64,000 bases of DNA, taken from contig JAWSUS010000002.1 of NCBI GenBank assembly GCA_033549025.1, positions 128,001 through 192,000 of the forward strand, given 5' to 3'. Shown here one piece after another: positions 476 through 12,810 of this stretch. Source of the stretch: Desulfuromonadales bacterium (GTDB taxonomy: Bacteria > Desulfobacterota > Desulfuromonadia > Desulfuromonadales > SZUA-540). Within the stretch, counting starts at the first letter, position 1, and each line of letters starts with the position of its first letter. The position numbers were made by a program, and so were the translations under genes. A model generated the notes under the pieces. That model was not told the DNA's origin. It saw nothing but the letters and a program-made list of their open reading frames with translations, and made no database searches.

Positions 476-1312
476 ATGACCCTGCTGCTGGGCTTCGGCG
501 CCGTCAATACCGGCAACAACCTCATCTACCTGCTGGTATCCGCCCTGCTCGGCTTCATGGTCATCTCCGGCATTCTGGGTAAACGCAACCTCGACGGGCT
601 GCAGGTACGTCTGCGCTTTGCCGACGAGATCTACGACGGGCACCCCACCCTGGTCAGGGTCGAACTGACCAACCGGCGCCGCTTTCTGCCGGCCCAGCTC
701 ATCGACGTCCAGCTCGCCTCGGAGCCCGGCGCGGTGCTGTTTCCGTTGGTGCCGTCCGGCGAGCAGGAAGCCGGCCGCCTGCTGCTCACCCTGACCGGCC
801 GCGGGCCGCGGTCCTTTTCGGCCATCCAGATCAGCTCCCGCTACCCCATCAACTTTTTCGTGCGCTCCCGACACATCCCCATCGCGGACCGCTGTGTCGT
901 CTTTCCCGCCCCCCAGCCCTGTCCGCTGCCTGCCGCGTCTTCCGGCCGCCAGCGCGCCGGTGAACGGACCGCCTCCCAGCGCGGCCACGAAGGGGATATC
1001 GACCGCATTCATGAATACCGACCGGGCGACCCCCTGCGGCGGATTCACTGGCGGCTGTCTGCCCGACACGATCAGCTCAAGGTCAAGGATCTCGCCGCCG
1101 CGGCCAGCGAACCCCTGTGGGTCGATCCCCGCGAGTGCCCGGGAGCCAGCCTCGAAGAAAAGCTGCGCTGCGCGGTCTACCTCATCAACCAGGGGGGCCG
1201 GGCGGAGCGGCCCGTGGGCCTGCGACTGCCCGGACAACGCCTGGCACCCGCGACGGGACGGCCGCACCGTCTGAAACTCCTTCATCACCTGGCCGGTTAT
1301 GGTAAAAATTAA
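476..1312 (+). CDS. DUF58 domain membrane protein (true start may be CTG at 440)
   Basis: GAVNTGNNLIYLL N-terminal TM motif; IHEYRPGDPLRRIHWRLSAR signature; frame is open upstream to CTG 440 (LKLTRAGALYIV), which overlaps the moxR stop. Confidence 0.85.
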   Translation: MTLLLGFGAVNTGNNLIYLLVSALLGFMVISGILGKRNLDGLQVRLRFADEIYDGHPTLVRVELTNRRRFLPAQLIDVQLASEPGAVLFPLVPSGEQEAGRLLLTLTGRGPRSFSAIQISSRYPINFFVRSRHIPIADRCVVFPAPQPCPLPAASSGRQRAGERTASQRGHEGDIDRIHEYRPGDPLRRIHWRLSARHDQLKVKDLAAAASEPLWVDPRECPGASLEEKLRCAVYLINQGGRAERPVGLRLPGQRLAPATGRPHRLKLLHHLAGYGKN

Positions 1313-3212
1313 GCGCCTGCTCGATTACTTCACCTACGCAATCGTCCTGCTGGGGACGCTGCCCCTCTTTCCGCACCTCGACCTGCCGGTGCGGCTGCTG
1401 CTTCCCGCTGCCCTGGTCGCCGGGGTGATCGCCGACCAGCGGGAGCGCACCCTGCTGAAAACGTCGGCGGCAACCCTCGTGACCCTGGCTTTTTTCGCCT
1501 ATTACGGCCTCACTCTGTCTTTGGCCAACTTCATTCTGCCGCTGGTCAACGTTCTCGCCCTGCTTCTGGCTGTGCGTCTGGTCACCCCCAGAACCGGCCG
1601 CAACACCTTGCAGGCCTTCGTGCTCTCCCTCTTCGCCCTGGCCAGCTCGACCCTCATCACCCTGAGCCCCTATTTTCTCCTCTTCATGGTGCTGCAGATC
1701 CTGCTCATCACTGTCGGCCTGGTGCTACTGGCCTATTTCGTCGCCGATCCGCACCTGTCCCTGTCCCGCGAGCAGATACGGCGCCTGCTCTCCTTTGCCC
1801 TTATACTGCCGGTGACTTCACTGCTGCTGATGGCGCTCATCTTCCCCATCCTCCCCCGCACCCAGCGCCCCGTCTGGGGCTTTCTCAATCCCGCCATCGC
1901 CGCCACCGCCGGCTTCAGCGAACAGGTCAAGCCCGGCTCCGTCGCCGAGCTCAATGCCACCAAACAGGTGGTTTTTCGGGTCGAAAGCGAGCGCCTGCCC
2001 CAGGGGGAACTCTACTGGCGCGGCATCGTGCTCGATACCCTGCGGGGCAACACCTGGCTGCGCGGCGACGAGTCAGGAGGCCGCGCCAGCCGCCTGCAAG
2101 GCGGCCAGCCGATACGCCAGACCATTTCCCTCGAACCGCAATCGGGCGGCTACCTCTTCGCCCTCGACCGGCCCGAATCCCTGCAGGGCATCCGTCACAG
2201 TAGTTCGCCCGACCTGGTTCACCGCACCTCTCAGGCCGAGCGGCGGCGGGTACGCTACGAAGCGAACTCACGCCTCGGCGCGACCCTGAGAGAAAACGGC
2301 AGCCCTCAGCGCACCTTGCTGACGGTGCCGGCGGCACTGCCCGCCCGGGTTCAGGCTGTGGCCGACCGGATTCGCCAGCAGGGCCGCACCGTCGAGGAAA
2401 AAATCGCCCTGACGGAAGATTTCTTCCGGCAACAGCAACTCTCCTACGCCACCAGCGACCTCCCCGATCCGCAGAACCCCATTGACGACTTCCTCTTCGG
2501 CAAGCGGCGGGGGTACTGTGAATTTTTCGCCTCCTCCTTCGCCGTCATCCTGCGACAGGCCGAGGTGCCCACCCGCCTGGTCGGCGGCTATCTGGGCGGC
2601 GACTACAACGCCCTGGGCGGCTACTACCTCGTCACCGAAGACATGGCCCACGTCTGGGTCGAAGCCCGCCTCGAAGACGGCCGCTGGACACGTATCGACC
2701 CCAGCCGCCTCGCCATCAACGCCGCCACCGCCGTGCGCGGCAGCAACCCCGCCCACCTCGGCGTTCTGCGCCAGCTCGCCGATTCGGCCAGCCATTTCTG
2801 GGCCCACAGCATCCTCAACTACGACCTGCTGCGCCAGATCGAGATTCTGCGCAACACGGGCGAACGCCTGCAAAAACCGACCTGGCGGCCCCAAGAAGTC
2901 CCCCGCGGCCTGCTCCCCCTTGCCCTCGCAGTCGCCGCCATCATTCTGGGCTACACGGTCTGGCACCGGCGCAAAAGCCGCGAGCAAAGACTGGTGGCCC
3001 GCTTTCAGCGCCTGGCTGCCAAGCAGTTGGGCCTGGGGTCCATCCCCCCGCACATCGGGATTCACGAAATCGCCCGCCGCCTGAAAGATCCGCTCGCCCG
3101 CGAATTCGCCGAGCGCTACGGCCAGGCCATCTACCAGGACCGACGACTCAGTCGGGCAGAGATTCGGGAATTGAATGATTTGCTGAGGCGGATGCGAGGT
3201 CAGAAGGTGTGA
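1299..3212 (+). CDS. TgpA-like transglutaminase-domain membrane protein (DUF3488 + transglutaminase core)
   Basis: Multi-TM N-terminus, LYWRG motif, catalytic GYCEFFASSF...AHVWVE...WTRIDPS triad. Confidence 0.88.
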   Translation: MVKIKRLLDYFTYAIVLLGTLPLFPHLDLPVRLLLPAALVAGVIADQRERTLLKTSAATLVTLAFFAYYGLTLSLANFILPLVNVLALLLAVRLVTPRTGRNTLQAFVLSLFALASSTLITLSPYFLLFMVLQILLITVGLVLLAYFVADPHLSLSREQIRRLLSFALILPVTSLLLMALIFPILPRTQRPVWGFLNPAIAATAGFSEQVKPGSVAELNATKQVVFRVESERLPQGELYWRGIVLDTLRGNTWLRGDESGGRASRLQGGQPIRQTISLEPQSGGYLFALDRPESLQGIRHSSSPDLVHRTSQAERRRVRYEANSRLGATLRENGSPQRTLLTVPAALPARVQAVADRIRQQGRTVEEKIALTEDFFRQQQLSYATSDLPDPQNPIDDFLFGKRRGYCEFFASSFAVILRQAEVPTRLVGGYLGGDYNALGGYYLVTEDMAHVWVEARLEDGRWTRIDPSRLAINAATAVRGSNPAHLGVLRQLADSASHFWAHSILNYDLLRQIEILRNTGERLQKPTWRPQEVPRGLLPLALAVAAIILGYTVWHRRKSREQRLVARFQRLAAKQLGLGSIPPHIGIHEIARRLKDPLAREFAERYGQAIYQDRRLSRAEIRELNDLLRRMRGQKV

Positions 3213-3319
3213 TTGAGAGGGTTGGGGGAGGGACCCTCAGGAAATTCCTGATTTCGGATTGATTTTATTTGGGGTAGGATGGTTGGTCAATTTAGGCATG
3301 GATTCAAAAGGGTGTAGTT

Positions 3320-3493
3320 ATGGAGCGCAACAAATCAATGATGAAACGCTTGAGAGGGTTGGACAAAACAGCCTCGGAACAGCCGAAAAGATCGCTGGAG
3401 GAAGCCTTAGCGCAATACGACAGGCAGAATCCGCACTCCCAAGTCGCAAATGTGGCGCAAGGCTCAGTAGAGTCAGGCAATAGAGAAAAATAG
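3320..3493 (+). CDS. Small hypothetical ORF (57 aa, MERNKSMMKRLRGLDK...)
   Basis: ATG 3320 to TAG 3493 read by hand, weak SD-like AAAGGG upstream; no recognisable motif. Confidence 0.25.
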   Translation: MERNKSMMKRLRGLDKTASEQPKRSLEEALAQYDRQNPHSQVANVAQGSVESGNREK

Positions 3494-3495
3494 AC

Positions 3496-3572
3496 CGCCC
3501 TGGATCGCACGCTTAAATCGTGCAAGCCAGGGCGAAGGGGAAGGGAATCAAGTTATGTGCCCCCGGAGTTGC
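3496..3572 (+). mobile_element. Remnant A: 3' end of a Y1/RAYT-like transposase element
   Basis: Translates LDRTLKSCKPGRRGRESSYVPPE, resembling the intact transposase C-terminus LNQILKPGKPGRPRKE; hairpin CGCCCTGG..GCACG/CGTGC..CCAGGGCG (3496-3534); ends TTATGTGCCCCCGGAGTT. Confidence 0.5.
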
Positions 3573-3606
3573 CGGAAAACTGGGGAGTGTCCCTAATTTT
3601 CTTTTG
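3573..3606 (+). mobile_element. Remnant B: copy of the end of the Y1 transposase element at 6073-6827
   Basis: GGGGAGTGTCCCTAATTTT (3582-3600) is identical to 6809-6827; encodes RKTGECP* versus RKETGECP* in the intact gene; 3581-3606 is the reverse complement of 6073-6098 with 1 mismatch. Confidence 0.85.
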
Positions 3607-3696
3607 CAAGAGATAGCGCAAGTTCTCGGGATTCACTCCACAACGGTGAGCAAGGTGCTCAGTGGGGATAAAAACGATATTTCAAGACCTGACCCC
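3604..3696 (+). pseudogene. Remnant C: C-terminal HTH and right end of another Y1/RAYT-like element
   Basis: LQEIAQVLGIHSTTVSKVL helix-turn-helix fragment with no upstream domain, followed by TTTCAAGACCTGACCCC, a terminal motif typical of HTH-bearing Y1 transposase elements. Confidence 0.6.
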
Positions 3697-3699
3697 ATT

Positions 3700-3767
3700 G
3701 ATGTTGAAACCAAATTGCGGTGGTGGCCGTAACTTCGCGTCGCCACCGCTTATCACTACCGTTAGCT
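3700..3767 (+). repeat. attC0: left-truncated integron attC site
   Basis: Ends in L' GCTTATC, 6-nt spacer, core GTTAGCT (3761-3767); 3718-3766 matches the right half of attC3 at 43 of 50 aligned positions; no inverse core upstream. Confidence 0.75.
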
Positions 3768-3784
3768 CTCAATAAGGAAAGCAT

Positions 3785-4399
3785 GTGGCAGAAGAAGTTT
3801 CTCAAGCAATGACAGCATCAGCGTGGTTAGATCCAAAGTTGATTATCCCAGCCATTGGAGTTGTTCTTGCATCAGTGATTGTTCCGATATTGCTTCATAT
3901 CCTCAAAGGAAGACGAGAGCGGGAAGACAAGCTGTTGGAAATACGAACAAAAACATATACCGAGTACTTCAGGAGGTTTGAGGAAGCTGCGCGTGGAGTT
4001 GGTCTTGATTATGAACAATTCTCAAAAGTCACGTTAAAAAGTGCATTCCGTGAGCTCCTGGAATCAGATAATTCTCCCGATGCAATCATTAAGTTCCAAG
4101 ATGAGGTTGGCAAGTTCCCCCATCAAATTCAGGACTCTCATAGAAAAGCAACCGAAGAAATTACAACCTTAAAAGTTCTTGGTTCATCAAAGTTGCTGGA
4201 ACTTACAACTGAGTTTGGGGCGTTGAATCAAGAAATATTAGAAATGTCGTCTGAATGGCTTAATGAAATGCAACAGGCGCTTGCCATGCCAAATTTTGAT
4301 GCCCCGATAGCAAAGAAAATGAAAGAAAAAGGGATTAGAGCCAAAGAACTCAAAGAACAAATAATCAAGCAGATGAGGGCGGAGTTAAAACTTGATTAA
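3785..4399 (+). CDS. Cassette 1: hypothetical protein with N-terminal TM helix
   Basis: GTG start with SD TAAGGA; hydrophobic LIIPAIGVVLASVIVPILL; stop 6 nt before attC1. Confidence 0.8.
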   Translation: MAEEVSQAMTASAWLDPKLIIPAIGVVLASVIVPILLHILKGRREREDKLLEIRTKTYTEYFRRFEEAARGVGLDYEQFSKVTLKSAFRELLESDNSPDAIIKFQDEVGKFPHQIQDSHRKATEEITTLKVLGSSKLLELTTEFGALNQEILEMSSEWLNEMQQALAMPNFDAPIAKKMKEKGIRAKELKEQIIKQMRAELKLD

Positions 4400-4405
4400 G
4401 AAAAG

Positions 4406-4475
4406 AGCTAACAATTCGCTCGTGTGGGACGCTTCGCCGCGTTGCGGCTCGCGCCCCACAGCTTAGCCGTTAGGC
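4406..4475 (+). repeat. attC1 (70 bp)
   Basis: Inverse core AGCTAAC, spacer AATTC, left arm GCT[C]GTG[T]GGG[A]CGC pairing with GCGCCCCACAGC and leaving three extrahelical bases, inner GCCGC/GCGGC hairpin, core GTTAGGC. Confidence 0.92.
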
Positions 4476-4496
4476 CTCAAAATAAGAAGGTGTAAT

Positions 4497-5057
4497 TTGA
4501 GCAATATGAAATATGAAATTTCCTTAGATTTTGCTCGAAAAAAGTACGAGCAAATGAACAAGCAAGTAACACCAAGTATCCGCCAAAGAGAAGATTCATT
4601 GCTTCAGAAATTGCAAAATTCGAAACTTGGTAGGCTAAAAAAACTAGAACTATTTTTTTCAGAAATGGAAGAAATATATAAATTTATTCACAAATTCACC
4701 ATCTGCAAAAAAGGTTGCAACCATTGTTGCCACTATGAAATTGCAATCACTGACCTTGAGGTTGAATATATAAAAAGCAAAGTAAAAATCAATAGATCAA
4801 AAATAATTCCATCCGCACAAGCATGCCCGTTTCTTAAAAATGGCGTGTGTTCGATCTATGAATATAGACCATTTATCTGTCGAAGGCATTTGTCTATAAC
4901 TGACACGCCCGACTGGTGCAAGATTGATGGCTGTAATGATTATACTTTTCCGCTCATAAATTTGTCTGAAATCGACAAATGCTATGCATATTTAGTTGAT
5001 GGTGAACAAGGCATGAAATCGCTAAAAGATATTCGTAAAGCATTTAAAAAGTCCTAA
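4497..5057 (+). CDS. Cassette 2: YkgJ-family cysteine-cluster (putative Zn/Fe-chelating) protein
   Basis: CKKGCNHCC...CPFL...CSIYEYRPFICR motif; TAA stop lies inside the attC2 inverse core. Confidence 0.85.
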   Translation: MSNMKYEISLDFARKKYEQMNKQVTPSIRQREDSLLQKLQNSKLGRLKKLELFFSEMEEIYKFIHKFTICKKGCNHCCHYEIAITDLEVEYIKSKVKINRSKIIPSAQACPFLKNGVCSIYEYRPFICRRHLSITDTPDWCKIDGCNDYTFPLINLSEIDKCYAYLVDGEQGMKSLKDIRKAFKKS

Positions 5058-5158
5058 CAAAAAAAATGAACCGGACGAAAACTACTTGTGCGGTTCACTG
5101 AAAGTATTCTACTTGTTTGAAATGGCGCGACGTCGCCGGTTATCTTTGCCCGTTAGCT
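5052..5158 (+). repeat. attC2 (107 bp)
   Basis: Inverse core TCCTAAC; AT[G]AACCGG pairs with CCGGTTAT; core GTTAGCT at 5152-5158. Confidence 0.85.
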
Positions 5159-5174
5159 TTCAGAAAGAAGAATC

Positions 5175-5864
5175 ATGACCTTCGTTGATGCACTATACGC
5201 AATTTCAATCCTCATAGGAATTTGGGTATCAATTGCGGGCATCAATAATTGGCGGAAAGTTCATACCGGGAAAAGAAAAATTGAACTTGCAGAAGATTCT
5301 TTGGCGTTATTCTACGAAGCCTCTGACGCAATAAATTACCTCAGACATCCCTTCTCTTACTCAAGCGAAACTGAGGAAATCAAACGAGCTGAAAATGAAT
5401 CAGAAGCTGCGTGGGAAGCGCGTAAAAACGCAAGTGTAGTTTTCTATCGGTATAAACAACACCAAGAACTTTTCAACAAACTGTATGCCTCTCGCTACAG
5501 GTTTATGGCCCAAATCGGAAAAGAAAAAGCCAAGCCATTTGAAGACTTGCAGAAAGTAATCAATGACATCGTCAAATCAGCCCGACACCTCTCAAGGCTA
5601 TGGGCCAGAGATCATTTCCGAACAGAAAAACAATGGGAAGATCACCAGCAGCGCGTAGGGGAGCAAGAAGCCATTTTCTGGGCAGATTCAGTCGATAATG
5701 ACCCAATCATCCCACGAGTAACAAAAGTAATAGAAGAAATGGAAGCAATCTGTAGTGACGTCATTAATGGTGAAAAATCCATAGCAGACATATTGAACTA
5801 TCCTTTGCTAAAGAAAGCTAACAAACTAATCAACCGGACGGAAAATACGTCTGTGAATAATTGA
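5175..5864 (+). CDS. Cassette 3: hypothetical protein with N-terminal TM helix
   Basis: 229-aa ORF starting 16 nt after the attC2 core; hydrophobic N-terminus; reads into attC3. Confidence 0.8.
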   Translation: MTFVDALYAISILIGIWVSIAGINNWRKVHTGKRKIELAEDSLALFYEASDAINYLRHPFSYSSETEEIKRAENESEAAWEARKNASVVFYRYKQHQELFNKLYASRYRFMAQIGKEKAKPFEDLQKVINDIVKSARHLSRLWARDHFRTEKQWEDHQQRVGEQEAIFWADSVDNDPIIPRVTKVIEEMEAICSDVINGEKSIADILNYPLLKKANKLINRTENTSVNN

Positions 5865-5927
5865 AAATCGAAATCTCGGTGGTGGCCAAAACTTCACGTC
5901 GCCGCCGGTTATCACGAACCGTTAGCC
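5816..5927 (+). repeat. attC3 (112 bp)
   Basis: Inverse core AGCTAAC, spacer AAACT, AT[C]AACCGG pairs with CCGGTTAT (extrahelical C at L'' position 4), core GTTAGCC at 5921-5927. Confidence 0.88.
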
Positions 5928-5940
5928 ATTGGAAAAGAAT

Positions 5941-6072
5941 ATGCCGACTCCAGAAGATGTACTCAACCAACAGGCAGCAATTACTTGGGACACAATTAAA
6001 AATGCATATGAAAATCAGATTTCATATGGTGAAGACGCTATCACTTCAGTCAATCTACTTTCGCTTAAAAAT
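5941..6072 (+). pseudogene. Cassette 4: 5' fragment of a gene truncated by the Y1 element left end
   Basis: ATG 13 nt after the attC3 core (MPTPEDVLNQQAAITWDTIKNAYENQISYGEDAITSVNLLSLKN); runs into the inverted repeat at 6073; no attC of its own. Confidence 0.6.
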
Positions 6073-6107
6073 CAAAAGGAAATTAGGGACACTCCCCATA
6101 TTATCGA

Positions 6108-6135
6108 TTGCAGCCGTGAAGATTTGAGCTATCAT
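6108..6135 (+). promoter_or_regulatory. Putative sigma70 promoter of the transposase (leaderless)
   Basis: TTGCAG-16-TATCAT ending 7 nt before ATG 6143; no SD. Confidence 0.45.
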
Positions 6136-6142
6136 TTCCGCC

Positions 6143-6823
6143 ATGCCAAGAATTGCACGTATCATAGCTCCCGGTTACCCGCATCACATAACCCAACGTG
6201 GCAACAACCGCGCCACCGTTTTCTTCGATGACGAAGATAGACAAACCTATCTAAAGCTGCTGGCAGACTACACCCAGAAGCATCATGTCCAGATCTGGGC
6301 TTACTGCCTGATGGACAACCATATTCATCTGCTCGCCGTACCAGAGACGGAATCCTCTCTGTCGCGCGGGATTGGGCTTACCAACCAGATGTATACCCAG
6401 TATCTCAACCGTAAGCGAGAACAGTCCGGGCGTATCTGGCAGAACCGTTTTTTTTCGTGTGTTGTCGAAAACGAACAATATCTTTGGGCGGTAGCGCGTT
6501 ACATTGAGCGCAATCCTCTCAAACCCGGGCTTGCCGCGAGCGTGGTTGATTATCGATGGTCAAGCGCCAAAGCGCATGTGAATGGCACTCAGGATTCGGT
6601 GTTGTCAGGGGATTCCTGGCTTTCACTACAGGAGCGAAGCGCGTATGCCGAATTTGTGTGCCTGGAAGACGATGAGACCGATAACACCATCCGCAGAGCC
6701 ACCAAATCCGGCAGGCCATTTGGCTCGGAATCCTTCATTGATATGTTGGAAATTCAGCTGAATCAGATATTGAAACCCGGGAAGCCGGGTCGTCCCCGGA
6801 AGGAAACCGGGGAGTGTCCCTAA
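6143..6823 (+). CDS. REP-associated-type (RAYT/TnpA-Y1) HUH tyrosine transposase
   Basis: MPRIAR..YPHHITQRGNNR, YCLMDNHIHLL (HUH), IWQNRF, RYIERNP (catalytic Tyr), YRWSS. Confidence 0.92.
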   Translation: MPRIARIIAPGYPHHITQRGNNRATVFFDDEDRQTYLKLLADYTQKHHVQIWAYCLMDNHIHLLAVPETESSLSRGIGLTNQMYTQYLNRKREQSGRIWQNRFFSCVVENEQYLWAVARYIERNPLKPGLAASVVDYRWSSAKAHVNGTQDSVLSGDSWLSLQERSAYAEFVCLEDDETDNTIRRATKSGRPFGSESFIDMLEIQLNQILKPGKPGRPRKETGECP

Positions 6824-6925
6824 TTTTGCCTTGAATTATCGGATTTTATAGGTGGGGGAAAAATGAAGGACGCTCTCAGGTTTTAGGGGGGTGAGACTTT
6901 TAAAATCTGAATAAGACGGCAATAC

Positions 6926-7010
6926 ATGACTCATTTATGGGGCTTATTTATCTAATATGATCCATATATGAGTCATTTTTCTTGACAGAACGATTTTCAC
7001 CCAGCATAGT
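6926..7010 (+). promoter_or_regulatory. hipBA-like promoter with paired operator palindromes
   Basis: ATGACTCATTTATGG (6926-6940) is inverted to CCATATATGAGTCAT (6962-6976) with 1 mismatch, directly upstream of TTGACA (6982)-17-CATAGT (7005). Confidence 0.7.
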
Positions 7011-7069
7011 CTTACAGACCAAATGCAGGATTGAACGGCTGCCACCAGAAACCGGGATTGAGAAAAACG

Positions 7070-7402
7070 ATGACGCAGGCACGGCCTTTTTCCAAATACA
7101 CCATAGAAGCGGTCAAGCTGCTCGGCAAGCAGATCCAGCTTGGACGCAAGCAACGTCGCTGGTCGGAAACCGAGCTTGCTGAGCGTGCCGGGATTGCCAG
7201 GGCGACTCTGCAGCGGATTGAAAAAGGGGACATGGCCTGCAAGATCGGGCTTGTCTTTGAAGTCGCGACGCTGGTCGGCATCAAACTGTTTGATGCGAAT
7301 AGCGAAACACTAAGAGGGCGAATCCATGAGGCCGACGAGCGGATCGCTCTGCTTCCCAAGCATATCCACCCCAGCAGAAAACCGGTCGACGATGAATTCT
7401 AA
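7070..7402 (+). CDS. hipB: HipB-like XRE-family HTH antitoxin
   Basis: RKQRRWSETELAERAGIARATLQRIEKGD HTH; overlaps the start of the HipA gene. Confidence 0.8.
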   Translation: MTQARPFSKYTIEAVKLLGKQIQLGRKQRRWSETELAERAGIARATLQRIEKGDMACKIGLVFEVATLVGIKLFDANSETLRGRIHEADERIALLPKHIHPSRKPVDDEF

Positions 7403-8708
7403 GCCAGAAAAATACACCGAAGCCTACGTCTGGATCTGGCTGCCGGGCGAAATCGAGCCGGTCGTCGCCGGAAAACTGACGGCGGAAAAGGACACGCTGG
7501 TTTTCAATTATGGAAAAAGCTATCTCGAACGAAACAACGCCATCGCCATCTATGACCTTGAGCTCCCTTTACGGCCGGGGGTGCTTCCCCTGCCAAAAGG
7601 GCTGACCATCCCCGGCTGCATCCGTGATGGAGCTCCAGACGCCTGGGGTCGGCGGGTGCTGCTGAACCGGTTGCTCGGGCGCAAAGGGAAAAACGCCGAC
7701 GTCTCGGGGTTGGACGAACTGACCTATCTGCTCGAATCTGGCTCCGACCGTATCGGAGCACTCGATTTCCAACGCTCACCGGTCGAATATGCGCCACGGT
7801 CCCCCGTGAACGCCTCTCTGGAAGAGTTACTCCGCTCCGCCGAGCGGGTTGAAAAAGGCATCCCCCTGAACGCAGACCTTGACGAAGCCTTGCATCATGG
7901 CAGCTCGATTGGCGGGGCACGCCCAAAGGCTCTCATCGAACATCAGAACAAAAAATACATCGCCAAATTTTCCTCGACGACCGACATCTACAGTGTCGTC
8001 AAGGCAGAATTTATTGCCATGCGCCTCGCTAAACGGAGCGGACTCCAGGCCGCTGAGGCGGAACTGACCACGGCCCTGGGCAAGGATGTCCTGCTGATTG
8101 AGCGCTTTGACCGCATATGGTGTAAAAAGGGCTGGCAACGACGCCCCATGCTTTCGGCCCTCACCCTGCTGGGCCTGGATGAAATGATGGCCCGCTACGC
8201 CAGCTACCAGGATCTGGCCGAGATTATTCGGCACAAATTCACCGAGGCACCGGCGACGCTGAAGGAGCTTTTTGCCCGCATCGTCTTCAACATCCTCGTC
8301 GGCAACACCGACGACCATGCCCGGAATCATGCGGCTTTCTGGAATGGCGAGACCCTATCCCTAACCCCGGCCTATGATATCTGCCCGCAAGGACGTAGCG
8401 GAAACGAGGCGACCCAAGCCATGCTGATCGGCGGAGACAATCGCATGAGCCGCATCTCTTCATGCCTTGAAGCCGCGCACCAATATCTTTTGTCACCAGC
8501 TGATGCCCGCGAGATTGTCAGCTATCAACTCACGATGATTGGTGATTGCTGGAATGATGTCTGCCAGCAGGCCGATCTGGGCGAAATCGATCGCAGATTG
8601 TTATGGGGTCGACAGTTTCTTAATCCCTTTGCCTTCGACGATCTGTCAGGTGAGAACGCCTCCTTGAGGACACTTTCTGACGAAACCAGAAAGAAAAACG
8701 CTCCTTGA
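7392..8708 (+). CDS. hipA: HipA-family kinase toxin
   Basis: PDAWGR, SIGGARPKA, LLIERFDR, GNTDDHARNH, LTPAYDI motifs. Confidence 0.9.
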   Translation: MNSKPEKYTEAYVWIWLPGEIEPVVAGKLTAEKDTLVFNYGKSYLERNNAIAIYDLELPLRPGVLPLPKGLTIPGCIRDGAPDAWGRRVLLNRLLGRKGKNADVSGLDELTYLLESGSDRIGALDFQRSPVEYAPRSPVNASLEELLRSAERVEKGIPLNADLDEALHHGSSIGGARPKALIEHQNKKYIAKFSSTTDIYSVVKAEFIAMRLAKRSGLQAAEAELTTALGKDVLLIERFDRIWCKKGWQRRPMLSALTLLGLDEMMARYASYQDLAEIIRHKFTEAPATLKELFARIVFNILVGNTDDHARNHAAFWNGETLSLTPAYDICPQGRSGNEATQAMLIGGDNRMSRISSCLEAAHQYLLSPADAREIVSYQLTMIGDCWNDVCQQADLGEIDRRLLWGRQFLNPFAFDDLSGENASLRTLSDETRKKNAP

Positions 8709-8896
8709 GAGCCTATTATGAAACCCACCACTTGCTGGGATTTCAAAACCATCACTGATCATTATTGTGCTCGGAGTCGAACCTGCTAGGCTTTGAAATT
8801 AATACGGGGCAGATTTTGCTCGCAAGTGCACCACCGCTTATTGCATACCTTCCGTCAGCGCCTCCATCCATTCACCCCCGTAAGGAGTTTTCCACA

Positions 8897-9643
8897 TTGG
8901 ATATTCCACGGATCTTCAACATTACCGAAAGTGCTCACCGCATTCATAACCCGTTCACACCCGAAAAGCTCGCCACTCTCGGCGCGGCGCTGCGGCTGGA
9001 AAAGGGAACCCGCGTGCTCGACCTCGGCAGCGGCTCGGGGGAGATGCTGTGCACCTGGGCACGCGATTACGGCGTCATCGGCACCGGCATCGACCTGAGC
9101 CCGTTGTTCACCGAGCAGGCGAAACACCGGGCTGCAGAACTCGGTGTCGCCAACCACGTCACGTTCATCCATGGCGATGCGGCCGGCTATGTTGCTGACG
9201 AGAAGGTAGGCGTGGCGGCCTGTCTTGGTGCTACGTGGATCGGTGGAGGCGTCGCCGGCACCATCGCGCTGCTGGCGCATAGCCTGCGCCCCGGGGGGAT
9301 CATCCTTGTCGGCGAACCCTACTGGCGGCAGCTGCCGCCGACGGAAGAGGTTGCCAAAGGGTGTCTTGCCGGCTCAATCGCCGACTTTCTGCTGCTGCCG
9401 GAGCTTCTGGCGTCTTTCGGCCACCTCGGCTACGACGTCGTCGAAATGGTTTTGGCCGACCAGGACAGCTGGGACCGATACGAGGCGGCCAAGTGGCTCA
9501 CCATGCGCCGATGGCTTGACGCCAACCCCGATGACGAACTCGCCAAAGAGGTTCGCGCCCAACTGACTTTGGAACCCGCGCGCTACGCCGCTTACACGCG
9601 TGAGTATCTCGGCTGGGGTGTGTTTGCGCTGATGACGCGGTGA
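8897..9643 (+). CDS. yjhP: YjhP-like class I SAM-dependent methyltransferase
   Basis: TTG start after SD TAAGGAG gives 248 aa starting MDIPRIFNITESAHRIHNPF; VLDLGSGSG motif; closely resembles E. coli YjhP as I recall it. Confidence 0.85.
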   Translation: MDIPRIFNITESAHRIHNPFTPEKLATLGAALRLEKGTRVLDLGSGSGEMLCTWARDYGVIGTGIDLSPLFTEQAKHRAAELGVANHVTFIHGDAAGYVADEKVGVAACLGATWIGGGVAGTIALLAHSLRPGGIILVGEPYWRQLPPTEEVAKGCLAGSIADFLLLPELLASFGHLGYDVVEMVLADQDSWDRYEAAKWLTMRRWLDANPDDELAKEVRAQLTLEPARYAAYTREYLGWGVFALMTR

Positions 9644-11517: not shown

Positions 11518-12810
11518 TTACACTTCGCTTTTAGGTTTGGCCTTGCGGGGCTTCCGCCGTCGTCCCCGCCTTCGGCGGTTAGGCGCTTCGGCTGGCCTGG
11601 CCTCTTCCTGTTCGGCGGCTTTGGCCAGCGCCTTCTGCCAACTGGCGCCCAGCTCCTGCCCTTCTCCCAGCACTTTGGTCCACAGCATGAAAAGCTCGAG
11701 CACCTGCGGGGTAAGGGGATGGCGAAGCAGGCGTTGTTCGCCCCGCTTGCCGCGCCCGCGGGCCAGGCGGTAGCAGCCGACCAGCAGTTCGCGGGCCAGG
11801 TGACGGATGCCGTGGGCGACGTGAAAATAGCCGCAGTGGGGGGACAGCACCAGGTTGGCGATGCGCACGACCTCGGTGATGGGGGCCCCGTCGCCCTGGG
11901 GGCAGGCCCGCCAGAAGCGGGAGAGGTAAAGGGCGGCCAGGGCCAGGTGCTCTTCGATTGCCTGCCCGGAGGCGGTGCGCGCATCGATCAGACTCAGCAG
12001 CTCAAAGGTGTCATTGTCGGCCTCGAACCCCGCCATCAGATAAGAGAGCAGTCCCAGTGACTGGGCCTGGCGCAGCACATCGGCGGCGACCCGGTGTCGG
12101 AAGAGTTCCATGAGTTCTTCCCGAATGCGGGCCGGGGCCGCTTCGGCGATAAGGGGGGCCCGGGCATAGATGCCCTCGCGGGTCTGTTCGTCGAGAGAGA
12201 AGCCGAGCCGCGCGGCAAACTCGATGGCCCGCAGCATGCGCACGGGGTCTTCGGTAAAGCGAACCTCCGGCTTACCGATCACCCGGATGCGGCCAGCCCG
12301 CAGATCTTCGAGCCCGCCGACATAATCGATGATGGAGAAGTCGGCGATATCGTAGAAGAGGGCGTTAATGGTGAAGTCCCGGCGAAAGGCGTCCTCACAG
12401 GGGGTGCCGAAGACATTTTCGGCGAAGAAAAAATGATCATCCGGGTTTTCCGGCAGTTCGTCCTCGCGCGGCAGACGGCGGAAGGTGGCCACTTCCACCA
12501 GGCTGTCCCGGCCGAAACGAATATGGGCGAGCCGGAAGCGACGGCCGACGAGAAAACAGTTGCGGAACAGTTTTTTCACCTGGTTGGGCGTGGCGTCGGT
12601 GCCGACGTCAAAATCCTTGGGCGTGCGCCCCAGCAGCAGGTCGCGGACGCTGCCGCCGACGAGATAGGCCTTGTGCCCGTGGCTACGCAGCCGGTAAAGC
12701 ACCTTCAGCGTGTTTTCGTCGATCTGCTTGCGGGAGATGGTGTGTTCGCTGCGGGGCAGGATGACCGGTGCGGCCGCCTGTCGGGGTATGTTTTGGTGGT
12801 CTGGATTCAT
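11518..12810 (-). CDS. pcnB: Poly(A) polymerase I
   Basis: YLVGGSVRDLLLGRTPKDFDV, LVGRRFRLAHI signature, RRDFTINAL, EDPVRMLRA, Arg-rich tail. Confidence 0.9.
   Translation of the reverse strand: MNPDHQNIPRQAAAPVILPRSEHTISRKQIDENTLKVLYRLRSHGHKAYLVGGSVRDLLLGRTPKDFDVGTDATPNQVKKLFRNCFLVGRRFRLAHIRFGRDSLVEVATFRRLPREDELPENPDDHFFFAENVFGTPCEDAFRRDFTINALFYDIADFSIIDYVGGLEDLRAGRIRVIGKPEVRFTEDPVRMLRAIEFAARLGFSLDEQTREGIYARAPLIAEAAPARIREELMELFRHRVAADVLRQAQSLGLLSYLMAGFEADNDTFELLSLIDARTASGQAIEEHLALAALYLSRFWRACPQGDGAPITEVVRIANLVLSPHCGYFHVAHGIRHLARELLVGCYRLARGRGKRGEQRLLRHPLTPQVLELFMLWTKVLGEGQELGASWQKALAKAAEQEEARPAEAPNRRRRGRRRKPRKAKPKSEV

What the first reader, a model, noticed from the sequence alone, without database searches (positions are those of the whole stretch)
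3573..6827. Integron cassette array bracketed by ends of a HUH/Y1 transposase element: a candidate integrase-free cassette-mobilising composite element
Seen: an intact RAYT-like Y1 transposase (6143-6823) sits between 18-bp inverted repeats. A second copy of the same end lies 2.5 kb upstream on the far side of the cassette array. It is identical to the right end over 19 bp (3582-3600 = 6809-6827), is a 25/26 inverted match to the left end (3581-3606 vs 6073-6098), and still encodes TGECP*. Both array boundaries are breaks at Y1-type ends: attC0 loses its left half just after ...CAAGACCTGACCCC, and cassette 4 is cut exactly at the left inverted repeat. Established: HUH Y1 transposases and IntI both act on folded single-stranded DNA hairpins, and CALINs are thought to arise by loss or displacement of intI. 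Inference: these Y1 elements may excise, capture and relocate pieces of integron arrays, possibly drawn to attC hairpins, giving a route of cassette spread that needs no IntI. I know of no demonstrated system of this kind.
Basis: partly seen in the sequence, partly recalled or inferred. Interest (0 to 1): 0.85.

Follow-up and report, generated by a model that had tools for sequence, protein, structure and literature searches.

The report
Transposon ends trimming a cassette array
A leftover integron gene-cassette array has been cut down at both edges exactly at the ends of a known but little-studied jumping gene; a sister species indicates that the ordinary integron enzyme filled this array in place, so the jumping gene looks like a trimmer rather than the carrier.

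Summary
In detail: an intact Y1/HUH gene in perfect 18-bp inverted repeats, an orphan right end upstream, and both array edges broken at Y1-type ends. The element is a TIRtron/TIRYT, a described kind. The composite-carrier reading is not supported here. Both ends face the array with their outer tips. The orphan end exists in sister G001 without any array. Sister G002 has, at the same site, an attI, 17 attC sites and the same TIRtron. Its cassettes are 99%-identical blocks of the intI-bearing array elsewhere, joined at attC GTT points, so IntI in trans is the likely filler. The window's genome has lost most of its intI. What survives: rearrangement joints fall repeatedly on the repeat tips, and ends are enriched near attC in five array-rich genomes (8 of 18 clusters; other IS 5 of 35; background 1.4%). 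In wider sets they are mostly elsewhere (7 of 79, 6 of 40, 3 of 80). The joints hit attC at varying positions. The scan noted TIRtron-attC pairings before in other genomes. Best reading: a satellite integron trimmed into a CALIN at TIRtron tips.

The parts
1299..3212 (+). tgpA-like gene, left flank of the island
   Evidence: Pfam TgpA_N and Transglut_core. Lies within 200 bp of pcnB in 11 of 27 other-family genomes of the order.
3235..3290 (+). Palindrome plus promoter-like unit that opens the island; also opens a second TIR/attC island in this genus; role unexplained
   Evidence: 11 motif hits at up to 1 mismatch in G000; alignments to L123 and L017.
3320..3493 (+). 57-aa ORF shared with sister G001, no family
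3553..3570 (+). Possible right-end remnant of a third Y1 type; unverified
   Evidence: Resemblance recalled and read from the sequence; no parent gene found among the fetched loci. Shared with G001.
3573..3600 (+). Orphan right end of the same TIRtron type, still encoding TGECP*; outer tip faces the array
   Evidence: Present in G001 without an array and there split by an IS110.
3604..3698 (+). C-terminal HTH tail and right end of a second, HTH-type TIRtron; true left edge of the array
   Evidence: The 33-aa tail matched 10 of 232 other genomes. In 6 of 9 fetched loci it ends a 170-314-aa frame with the Y1 tyrosine motif, and most of these loci show the same end sequence after it.
3702..3767 (+). 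attC0, right half only
   Evidence: Profile positions 43-105 of 106, 35.8 bits; weak model hit.
3785..4399 (+). Cassette 1 gene, 204 aa, no family
4406..4475 (+). attC1 (short type)
   Evidence: Heuristic; in the model's training set.
4497..5057 (+). Cassette 2 gene, CxxCxxCC (YkgJ-like) protein
   Evidence: PF03692 E 1.4e-07.
5052..5158 (+). attC2
   Evidence: bottom strand folds with R and L boxes paired.
5175..5864 (+). Cassette 3 gene, 229 aa; a 71% homologue is a single cassette in another genome's array
   Evidence: G058:C1:25306-26087, inside an attC cluster.
5816..5927 (+). attC3
   Evidence: matches attC sites in 74 of 232 other genomes of the order.
5941..6075 (+). Cassette 4 gene, first 45 of about 269 codons (PF20320 family), cut at the element's left tip
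6080..6097 (+). Left terminal inverted repeat of the TIRtron
   Evidence: motif found upstream of 71 of 79 related genes.
6143..6823 (+). TIRYT Y1/HUH transposase-like gene, intact, 226 aa; HIH at residues 60-62, catalytic-type Tyr at 120
   Evidence: 93.4% nt and 209/226 aa identical to the copy at the same site in G002; residues 1-131 identical.
6809..6826 (+). Right terminal inverted repeat, overlapping the stop codon
   Evidence: motif found downstream of 65 of 79 related genes.
6830..6850 (+). Left end of an HTH-type TIRtron lacking its first bases, fused to the right tip; G002 has it intact 1.7 kb beyond its TIRtron
7031..8708 (+). HTH + HipA-type toxin-antitoxin pair, absent at this site in G001 and G002
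11518..12810 (-). pcnB, right flank of the island
   Evidence: Pfam PolyA_pol.

Best explanation
This is the cut-down remnant (a CALIN) of a satellite integron that sits in the tgpA-pcnB island of this genus, interleaved with TIRtron ends. Step 1 (shown in sister G002): the site carried its own attI and a long array but no intI. Step 2 (strongly implied): the host's IntI, encoded elsewhere, copied cassettes into it. Step 3 (shown): a TIRtron has sat at the tail of this array since before G000 and G002 split, with its catalytic half conserved. Step 4 (shown): in the window's lineage the attI and the head of the array were replaced by a stack of TIRtron right ends, cassette 4 was cut at the left tip, and DNA beyond the right tip was lost; the host's intI was also largely deleted, freezing the array. 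Step 5 (inferred): the TIRYT enzyme nicks single-stranded DNA at or beside its repeat tips and rejoins it to nearby DNA, often within attC sites, giving adjacent deletions, swaps, tip duplications and short end-bounded units. The element trims and reshuffles arrays locally; nothing shows that it carried this array.
For: G002 has an attI-like site at this locus, aligned over about 100 bp with the attI of its intI-bearing array and ending at the same GTT, followed by 17 attC hits (16 were in the model). Three blocks of 440, 2132 and 3390 bp are 98.6-99.1% identical to the intI-bearing array, in reversed block order; four printed block edges break at GTT. All 3 sister genomes have intI over the cut-off elsewhere; G000 has none over the cut-off and a truncated one on C9. 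Homology between the G000 and G002 TIRtrons starts at 6077 and ends at 6826, at the tips; G000 and G001 part at the orphan tip. Contigs of related organisms also leave the window at 6080 and 6826. Tandem duplications lie at a tip in 30 of 79 loci against 5 of 79 random controls. End clusters lie within 2.5 kb of attC in 8 of 18 cases in five genomes, background 1.4%. 38% of CALINs have a neighbouring IS (PMC4889954). Related TnpA-REP enzymes cleave and rejoin ssDNA near their repeats (PMC8266576).
Against: No activity of any TIRYT was tested or found in print. Whether the array or the first TIRtron came first is not shown, and how the attI segment reached this site is open: in G002 it is joined to a repeated unit that elsewhere ends in a TIR. 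The G002 block copies could also have arisen by recombination between attC repeats. The window's own cassettes were not found in the sisters' arrays, so filling in trans is transferred from G002. Generic IS are also enriched near arrays (5 of 35), and whole Y1 genes are no more so (3 of 16, p 0.69). G000 is in 78 contigs, so a second intI could be unassembled.
Confidence: 0.62

Rival explanations
1. Composite or one-ended carrier: TIRYT moves pieces of arrays, with or without attI, between sites; the right end - array - TIRtron layout is the footprint of a circle integrated at a right end.
For: Arrays lie between two like-oriented right ends here and in G007. Tips are fused to attC fragments in several genomes. 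A ~100-bp unit with one end of each type recurs at 87-95% identity in G000, G001 and G002, so end-bounded units do move or copy. All 12 attC hits in 7 TIRtron loci lie on the gene's strand. The satellite attI in G002 follows a repeated unit that elsewhere ends in a TIR.
Against: No left partner for the upstream end; that end is in G001 without an array. The block was found in no other of 233 genomes and no contig of 4 runs bridges or skips it. Duplicated blocks in G002 end at GTT, not at tips. The TIRtron has stayed at this site across species. No relative above 36% identity among 72,556 plasmids. 72 of 79 TIRtron loci and 77 of 80 metagenome end loci show no attC. An HTH-type gene in G085 lies opposite to its attC sites.
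Confidence: 0.15
2. Passive pile-up: TIRtrons, like other IS, survive in neutral AT-rich islands; host recombination or replication slippage at the short GC-rich repeats makes the deletions, with no TIRYT action.
For: rve-type IS are about tenfold enriched near arrays too (5 of 35 against 1.4%). Joints fall at attC model positions of about 25, 43, 69, 72 and 88 and 1-150 bases past the right box, so there is no fixed target. The repeat folds as a small terminator-like hairpin.
Against: Joints fall at the outer tip within a few bases, mostly without a second repeat on the other side. End clusters exceed the rve control (8 of 18 against 5 of 35, Fisher p 0.022, on non-independent, hand-picked genomes). 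The gene's catalytic half is conserved.
Confidence: 0.17
3. IntI makes the joints: it recombines attC or attI with the ends as secondary sites and spreads end-bearing cassettes between arrays.
For: An end sits 9-17 bases behind a complete attC inside a cassette on G000 C45, a cassette that lacks it in G002, and right beside one in G071. Many right tips contain GTT.
Against: Most joints lie inside attC or inside cassette genes, away from the GTT where IntI exchanges strands.
Confidence: 0.06

Closest known systems
TIRtron / TIRYT (PMC3733652), largely TnpA-Y1 subclass 2.1 (PMC6006769)
   Same: RAYT-like HUH/Tyr gene between terminal inverted repeats with a GGGGWSAS-like motif, no REP; loose repeats as singles, dimers and clusters; HTH-tailed forms.
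   Different: The passages read report no link to integrons ('integron' occurs 0 times in either main text) and no activity. Here the tips mark joints in attC arrays.
CALIN made or cut by neighbouring mobile elements (PMC4889954)
   Same: At least two attC sites, no intI nearby, a mobile element at the edge; half of CALINs lie in genomes with IntI elsewhere.
   Different: The neighbour is a TIRtron, and a sister genome shows the intermediate: attI plus array without intI, holding copies of the main array's cassettes.
IMU and MITE-flanked integrons (reviewed in PMC3184786)
   Same: Short repeats on both sides of a cassette array lacking a working integrase.
   Different: IMU has two identical complete 288-bp units, a 5-bp target duplication and shown transposition by a transposase in trans. 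Here there is a lone right end, no duplication, a HUH enzyme and no shown move.
IS1111-attC group
   Same: Mobile element gathered in attC arrays; IS110-family genes lie near attC in 9 of 13 cases in the same five genomes.
   Different: Those elements are recalled to insert at a fixed attC position; TIRtron joints vary, and most TIRtrons are away from arrays.
IS200/IS605 beside a CALIN (PMC7923331) and IS91/ISCR one-ended transposition
   Same: HUH enzyme next to a CALIN; that paper already speculates on CALIN transfer without IntI.
   Different: IS200/IS605 have subterminal hairpins and no inverted repeats; ISCR needs ori and ter sites. Neither was shown here.

Membership tests
TIRtron / TIRYT | RAYT-like Y1 transposase with HUH and catalytic Tyr | tested here: met
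   PF01797 and NF047646 over cut-off; NHIH at 59 and RYIERNP at 119, a spacing of about 60 residues, inside the 58-67 range given in PMC6006769.
TIRtron / TIRYT | Gene flanked by terminal inverted repeats | tested here: met
   Perfect 18 bp; both repeats in 59 of 79 related loci.
TIRtron / TIRYT | GGGGWSAS motif in the repeat | tested here: met
   7 of 8 positions in the window's repeat (first G is A); several relatives have all 8. The motif is shared by only some TIRs in PMC3733652.
TnpA-Y1 subclass 2.1 | Clustering with subclass 2.1 and its C-terminal extension | not tested
   No subclass profiles at hand; supplements not read. The protein extends about 100 residues past the core but has no Pfam HTH; the neighbouring remnant is HTH-type.
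REPtron (RAYT with REPs) | GTAG/GTGG-tagged REP hairpins flanking the gene | tested here: not met
   None seen by eye in the flanks; repeat search gave only the inverted repeats. No dedicated REP scan was run.
IS200/IS605 | Short TnpA, subterminal hairpins at both ends, no inverted repeats | tested here: not met
   226 aa, 57.7 bits against 129.9 for the IS200-like gene on C8; left end folds at only -2.3 kcal/mol; inverted repeats present.
CALIN | At least two attC sites | tested here: met
   Three complete and one half site. IntegronFinder itself was not run.
CALIN | No intI nearby | tested here: met
   No TIGR02249 match over the cut-off in G000, and none on this contig.
Composite transposon / IMU-type unit | Two complete elements, or a left and a right end, enclosing the cargo | tested here: not met
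   Upstream copy is a right end only; array faces the outer tips.
Composite transposon / IMU-type unit | Same unit at another site, or an empty site with joints at the outer ends | tested here: not met
   Not found in G000, in 232 other genomes or in 4 runs; sisters show other contents, not a clean empty site. Only one genome per species is held.
Composite transposon / IMU-type unit | Mobilisation by the transposase shown by experiment | not testable with these tools
   Needs bench work.
attC-targeting element (IS1111-attC type) | Insertion at one fixed position of attC | tested here: not met
   Joints at about positions 25, 43, 69, 72, 88 of 106 and beyond the site.

The most novel reading that the evidence does not exclude
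TIRYT enzymes are ssDNA cut-and-join enzymes drawn to folded attC DNA. They join their repeat tips to attC sites and so lift attI-plus-cassette segments out of integrons, found satellite arrays at new loci (such as tgpA-pcnB and the second island of this genus), and later trim them. This would be a second, integrase-independent layer of cassette traffic working alongside IntI.
Probability: 0.17. Interest if true: 0.8.

Novelty: new member of a known kind. Interest (0 to 1): 0.36.

Why it matters
As it stands, the locus gives a rare three-species series for how an integrase-less array forms: an empty site, an attI-headed satellite stocked with copies from the main integron, and a trimmed remnant whose breaks sit on TIRtron tips. 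It also gives exact substrates (tips and joints) for a transposase family with no reported activity in the papers read. If TIRYTs also relocate attI and cassettes, cassette genes could spread in hosts that lack an integron integrase; that step is not shown.

Tried and rejected
(1) Composite transposon: rejected on orientation and on sister genomes. (2) A fixed attC target: rejected, joints vary. (3) A dedicated integron partner: rejected; 7 of 79, 6 of 40 and 3 of 80 loci have an attC hit. The model was trained on 21 sites of this genus and will miss distant attC types; the pairing heuristic found 0 of 85 in the metagenome set against 3 of 85 in reversed controls, so it added nothing. (4) Constant co-orientation: 7 of 7 loci, but one HTH-type gene is opposite. 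(5) A parent gene for the remnant at 3553-3570: none found. (6) The window's cassettes in the sisters' intI arrays: none. (7) Public runs: no run holds half of the stretch; the four laid are contigs of other organisms or strains, leave the cassette genes largely uncovered and show no joint between the two right ends; lack of cover proves nothing. (8) Plasmids: 7 records, best 35.8% identity. (9) Defence-family scan of the cassette genes: nothing convincing. (10) Paper search was swamped by unrelated words and is uninformative. (11) Look-ups of earlier findings by place and by sequence were empty. (12) The intI loss on C9 shows no TIR at its break by eye.
Full report
Observation. Every coordinate claim checks out. 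The repeat copies match as stated and the upstream copy reads TGECP*. The gene is an intact Y1/HUH protein. The array has three complete attC sites and a half site, lies in a 34-48% GC trough of a 58% GC genome, and has no intI over the cut-off anywhere in the 78 contigs. Cassette 4 keeps 45 of about 269 codons and stops at the element's left tip. Two points change the picture. The array's left edge is the right end of a second, HTH-tailed element, not the matching copy. And both matching ends turn their outer tips to the array, so the array is outside both.

Identity of the element. PMC3733652 (passages) named RAYT-like genes between terminal inverted repeats TIRtrons/TIRYTs, with a GGGGWSAS motif. 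PMC6006769 (part 2 of 10, passages and section 20) places most of them in subclass 2.1. The window's element meets the tested features. Among 79 related loci (best 80 of 192 kept by the tool) the left repeat is found in 71, the right in 65, both in 59. I did not read the supplements or figures of these papers; they may list this very repeat type.

Sister genomes at the same site. tgpA and pcnB lie within 200 bp of each other in 11 of 27 other-family genomes of the order, so the island is an addition. G003 has an unrelated gene there. G001 shares window 2500-3590, including the orphan right end, which is split by an IS110; after its tip come a cation transporter and the methyltransferase, with no array and no Y1 gene. 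G002 leaves the window at 3286 and carries an attI-like site, 17 attC hits (16 in the model's training set), an end-bounded mini unit, one ORF, a TIRtron 93.4% identical to the window's, a 534-aa gene and an intact HTH-type left end. The G002 site aligns with the attI beside its intI and with the attI on G000 C9, all ending at the same GTT.

Who filled the array. In the single-contig G002 genome three blocks of this array (440, 2132, 3390 bp) are 98.6-99.1% identical to the array next to intI about 2.6 Mb away in coordinates, in reversed block order. Four printed block edges break at the GTT of an attC; the remaining starts lie within attC or were not resolved. That is the signature expected of IntI acting in trans (established integron mechanism, PMC4889954, passages), though recombination between attC repeats is not excluded. 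All three sisters have intI elsewhere. G000 keeps the attI and the start of intI on C9 but lacks about 1.1 kb of it. The window's cassette 3 has a 71% homologue as a single cassette in G058's array. The window's cassettes are not in the sisters' arrays, so the step is carried over from G002 by inference.

What the ends do mark. Homology between the G000 and G002 TIRtrons runs from 6077 to 6826, tip to tip, with different DNA on both sides; the window's right tip is fused into an HTH-type left end that G002 has intact 1.7 kb further on; G000 and G001 part at the orphan tip. Contigs from 4 public runs of other organisms or strains also leave the window at 6080 and 6826, one into the same transporter gene as G001 (weak support). 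Short tandem duplications sit at a tip in 30 of 79 loci against 5 of 79 random controls. Tips fused to broken attC sites occur in G002, G007, L042, G001 and one metagenome locus, at about model positions 25, 43, 69, 72 and 88, or 1-150 bases past the site. These cases were found by looking for attC pieces, so their share is biased upward.

How general is the link. In five genomes that I chose for having both ends and many attC sites, 8 of 18 end clusters lie within 2.5 kb of attC, against 1.4% of the DNA, 5 of 35 rve-type IS, 3 of 16 Y1 genes and 9 of 13 IS110 genes (positions). I merged clusters by hand, kept two probable chance hits and added the IS-split G001 end; kin are not independent, so p 0.022 against rve overstates. 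Wider sets are lower: 7 of 79 gene loci, 6 of 40 end regions from 17 genomes (the 14 matches of G040 were not fetched, G000 and G002 were left out, and G007 and G071 overlap the five-genome set), and 3 of 80 metagenome loci with weak hits, of at least 125 found. A rough hand estimate of background (461 hits in 81 genomes, stricter filters) is about 1-2% for such windows. So the link is real but modest, and most TIRtrons are away from detectable arrays.

Mechanism. Shown: satellite attI array in G002, copies from the main array, long residence of the TIRtron, joints at tips, loss of intI. From established knowledge: HUH enzymes cleave and rejoin ssDNA, and TnpA-REP does so near its repeats and at some distant sites (PMC8266576, passages). 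Inferred: TIRYT makes the tip joints. The gene's first 131 residues are identical in G000 and G002 despite 23 synonymous codon differences over the gene (17 non-synonymous, all later), which fits a maintained enzyme. I give this reading 0.62, passive decay 0.17, carriage 0.15 and IntI at secondary sites 0.06.

What keeps the bold reading alive. Like-oriented right ends enclose cassettes here and in G007. A hybrid end-bounded unit recurs in all three species. The G002 satellite attI follows a repeated unit that elsewhere ends in a repeat, and its origin is unexplained.

Literature. Searches (attC, integron, RAYT: 0 papers; TIRYT: the two papers above) found no paper linking TIRtrons to integrons; the library lacks most subscription journals. 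PMC7923331 (passages) already speculates that an IS200/IS605 element could move a CALIN without IntI. PMC3184786 (passages) reviews the IMU, shown to move a defective integron. The IS1111-attC group is recalled, not read. The scan's own notes report TIRtron-attC pairings in other genomes; I had reached the TIRYT identification before reading them, and they are leads only.

Verdict. Observation confirmed; interpretation partly supported; new member of a known kind; interest 0.36.

Noticed in passing
L099 1210-2664; also L040, L064, L075, L079, L091 and a contig of run X4: An IS110-family element sits in the middle of the TIRtron repeat at the same point in several genomes, with like terminal sequence (read by eye). 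It looks like an IS110 that targets TIRtron repeats.
   Followed up: partly
L100 930-8340 and L119 4400-11710 (G002): An intI-less attI array holding 99%-identical blocks of the main integron array in reversed block order: a clear natural case of a satellite integron.
   Followed up: yes
L123 4330-10760 (G002), L125 5900-9400 (G001), L017 6000-6700 (G000 C32): A second island in this genus, behind what appears to be one core gene, packed with TIR ends, broken attC sites and cassette-like genes; contents differ between species.
   Followed up: partly
L123 7796-7900, 10449-10551, 10654-10741; L100 8601-8704; L125 6254-6355; L019 213-301: A ~100-bp mini unit with the left end of one TIRtron type and the right end of another, 87-95% alike across copies.
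   Followed up: partly
window 3235-3290: A palindrome followed by a promoter-like stretch opens both islands; in L123 and L125 the unit ends in a right repeat just before cassette-like genes and might drive their expression. 11 motif hits in G000.
   Followed up: partly
L016 1783-1835 (G000 C45): About 55 bp holding a left repeat and an attC tail lie at the head of a cassette that lacks them in G002.
   Followed up: partly
G000 C9 105-550: attI and a truncated integron integrase gene; about 1.1 kb missing against G002; an IS-like end follows the attI at the contig start.
   Followed up: partly
window 8765-9643 and L157 2560-3310: The same methyltransferase family gene lies at the tail of a TIRtron-bearing array in another family (G007), there behind a short attC-like site and followed by two right ends.
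   Followed up: no
window 7031-8708: HTH + HipA-type pair inserted between 6996 and about 8808, absent in both sisters; near-identical pieces occur in contigs of several public runs.
   Followed up: no
L005 and L006 (G000 C13, C58): Another TIRtron type (HTH-tailed) in at least two partial tandem copies at contig ends, away from any attC hit.
   Followed up: no
window 6926-6976: A 23-bp inverted repeat with a 5-bp spacer, conserved in G002, upstream of the toxin-antitoxin pair or methyltransferase; perhaps an operator.
   Followed up: no
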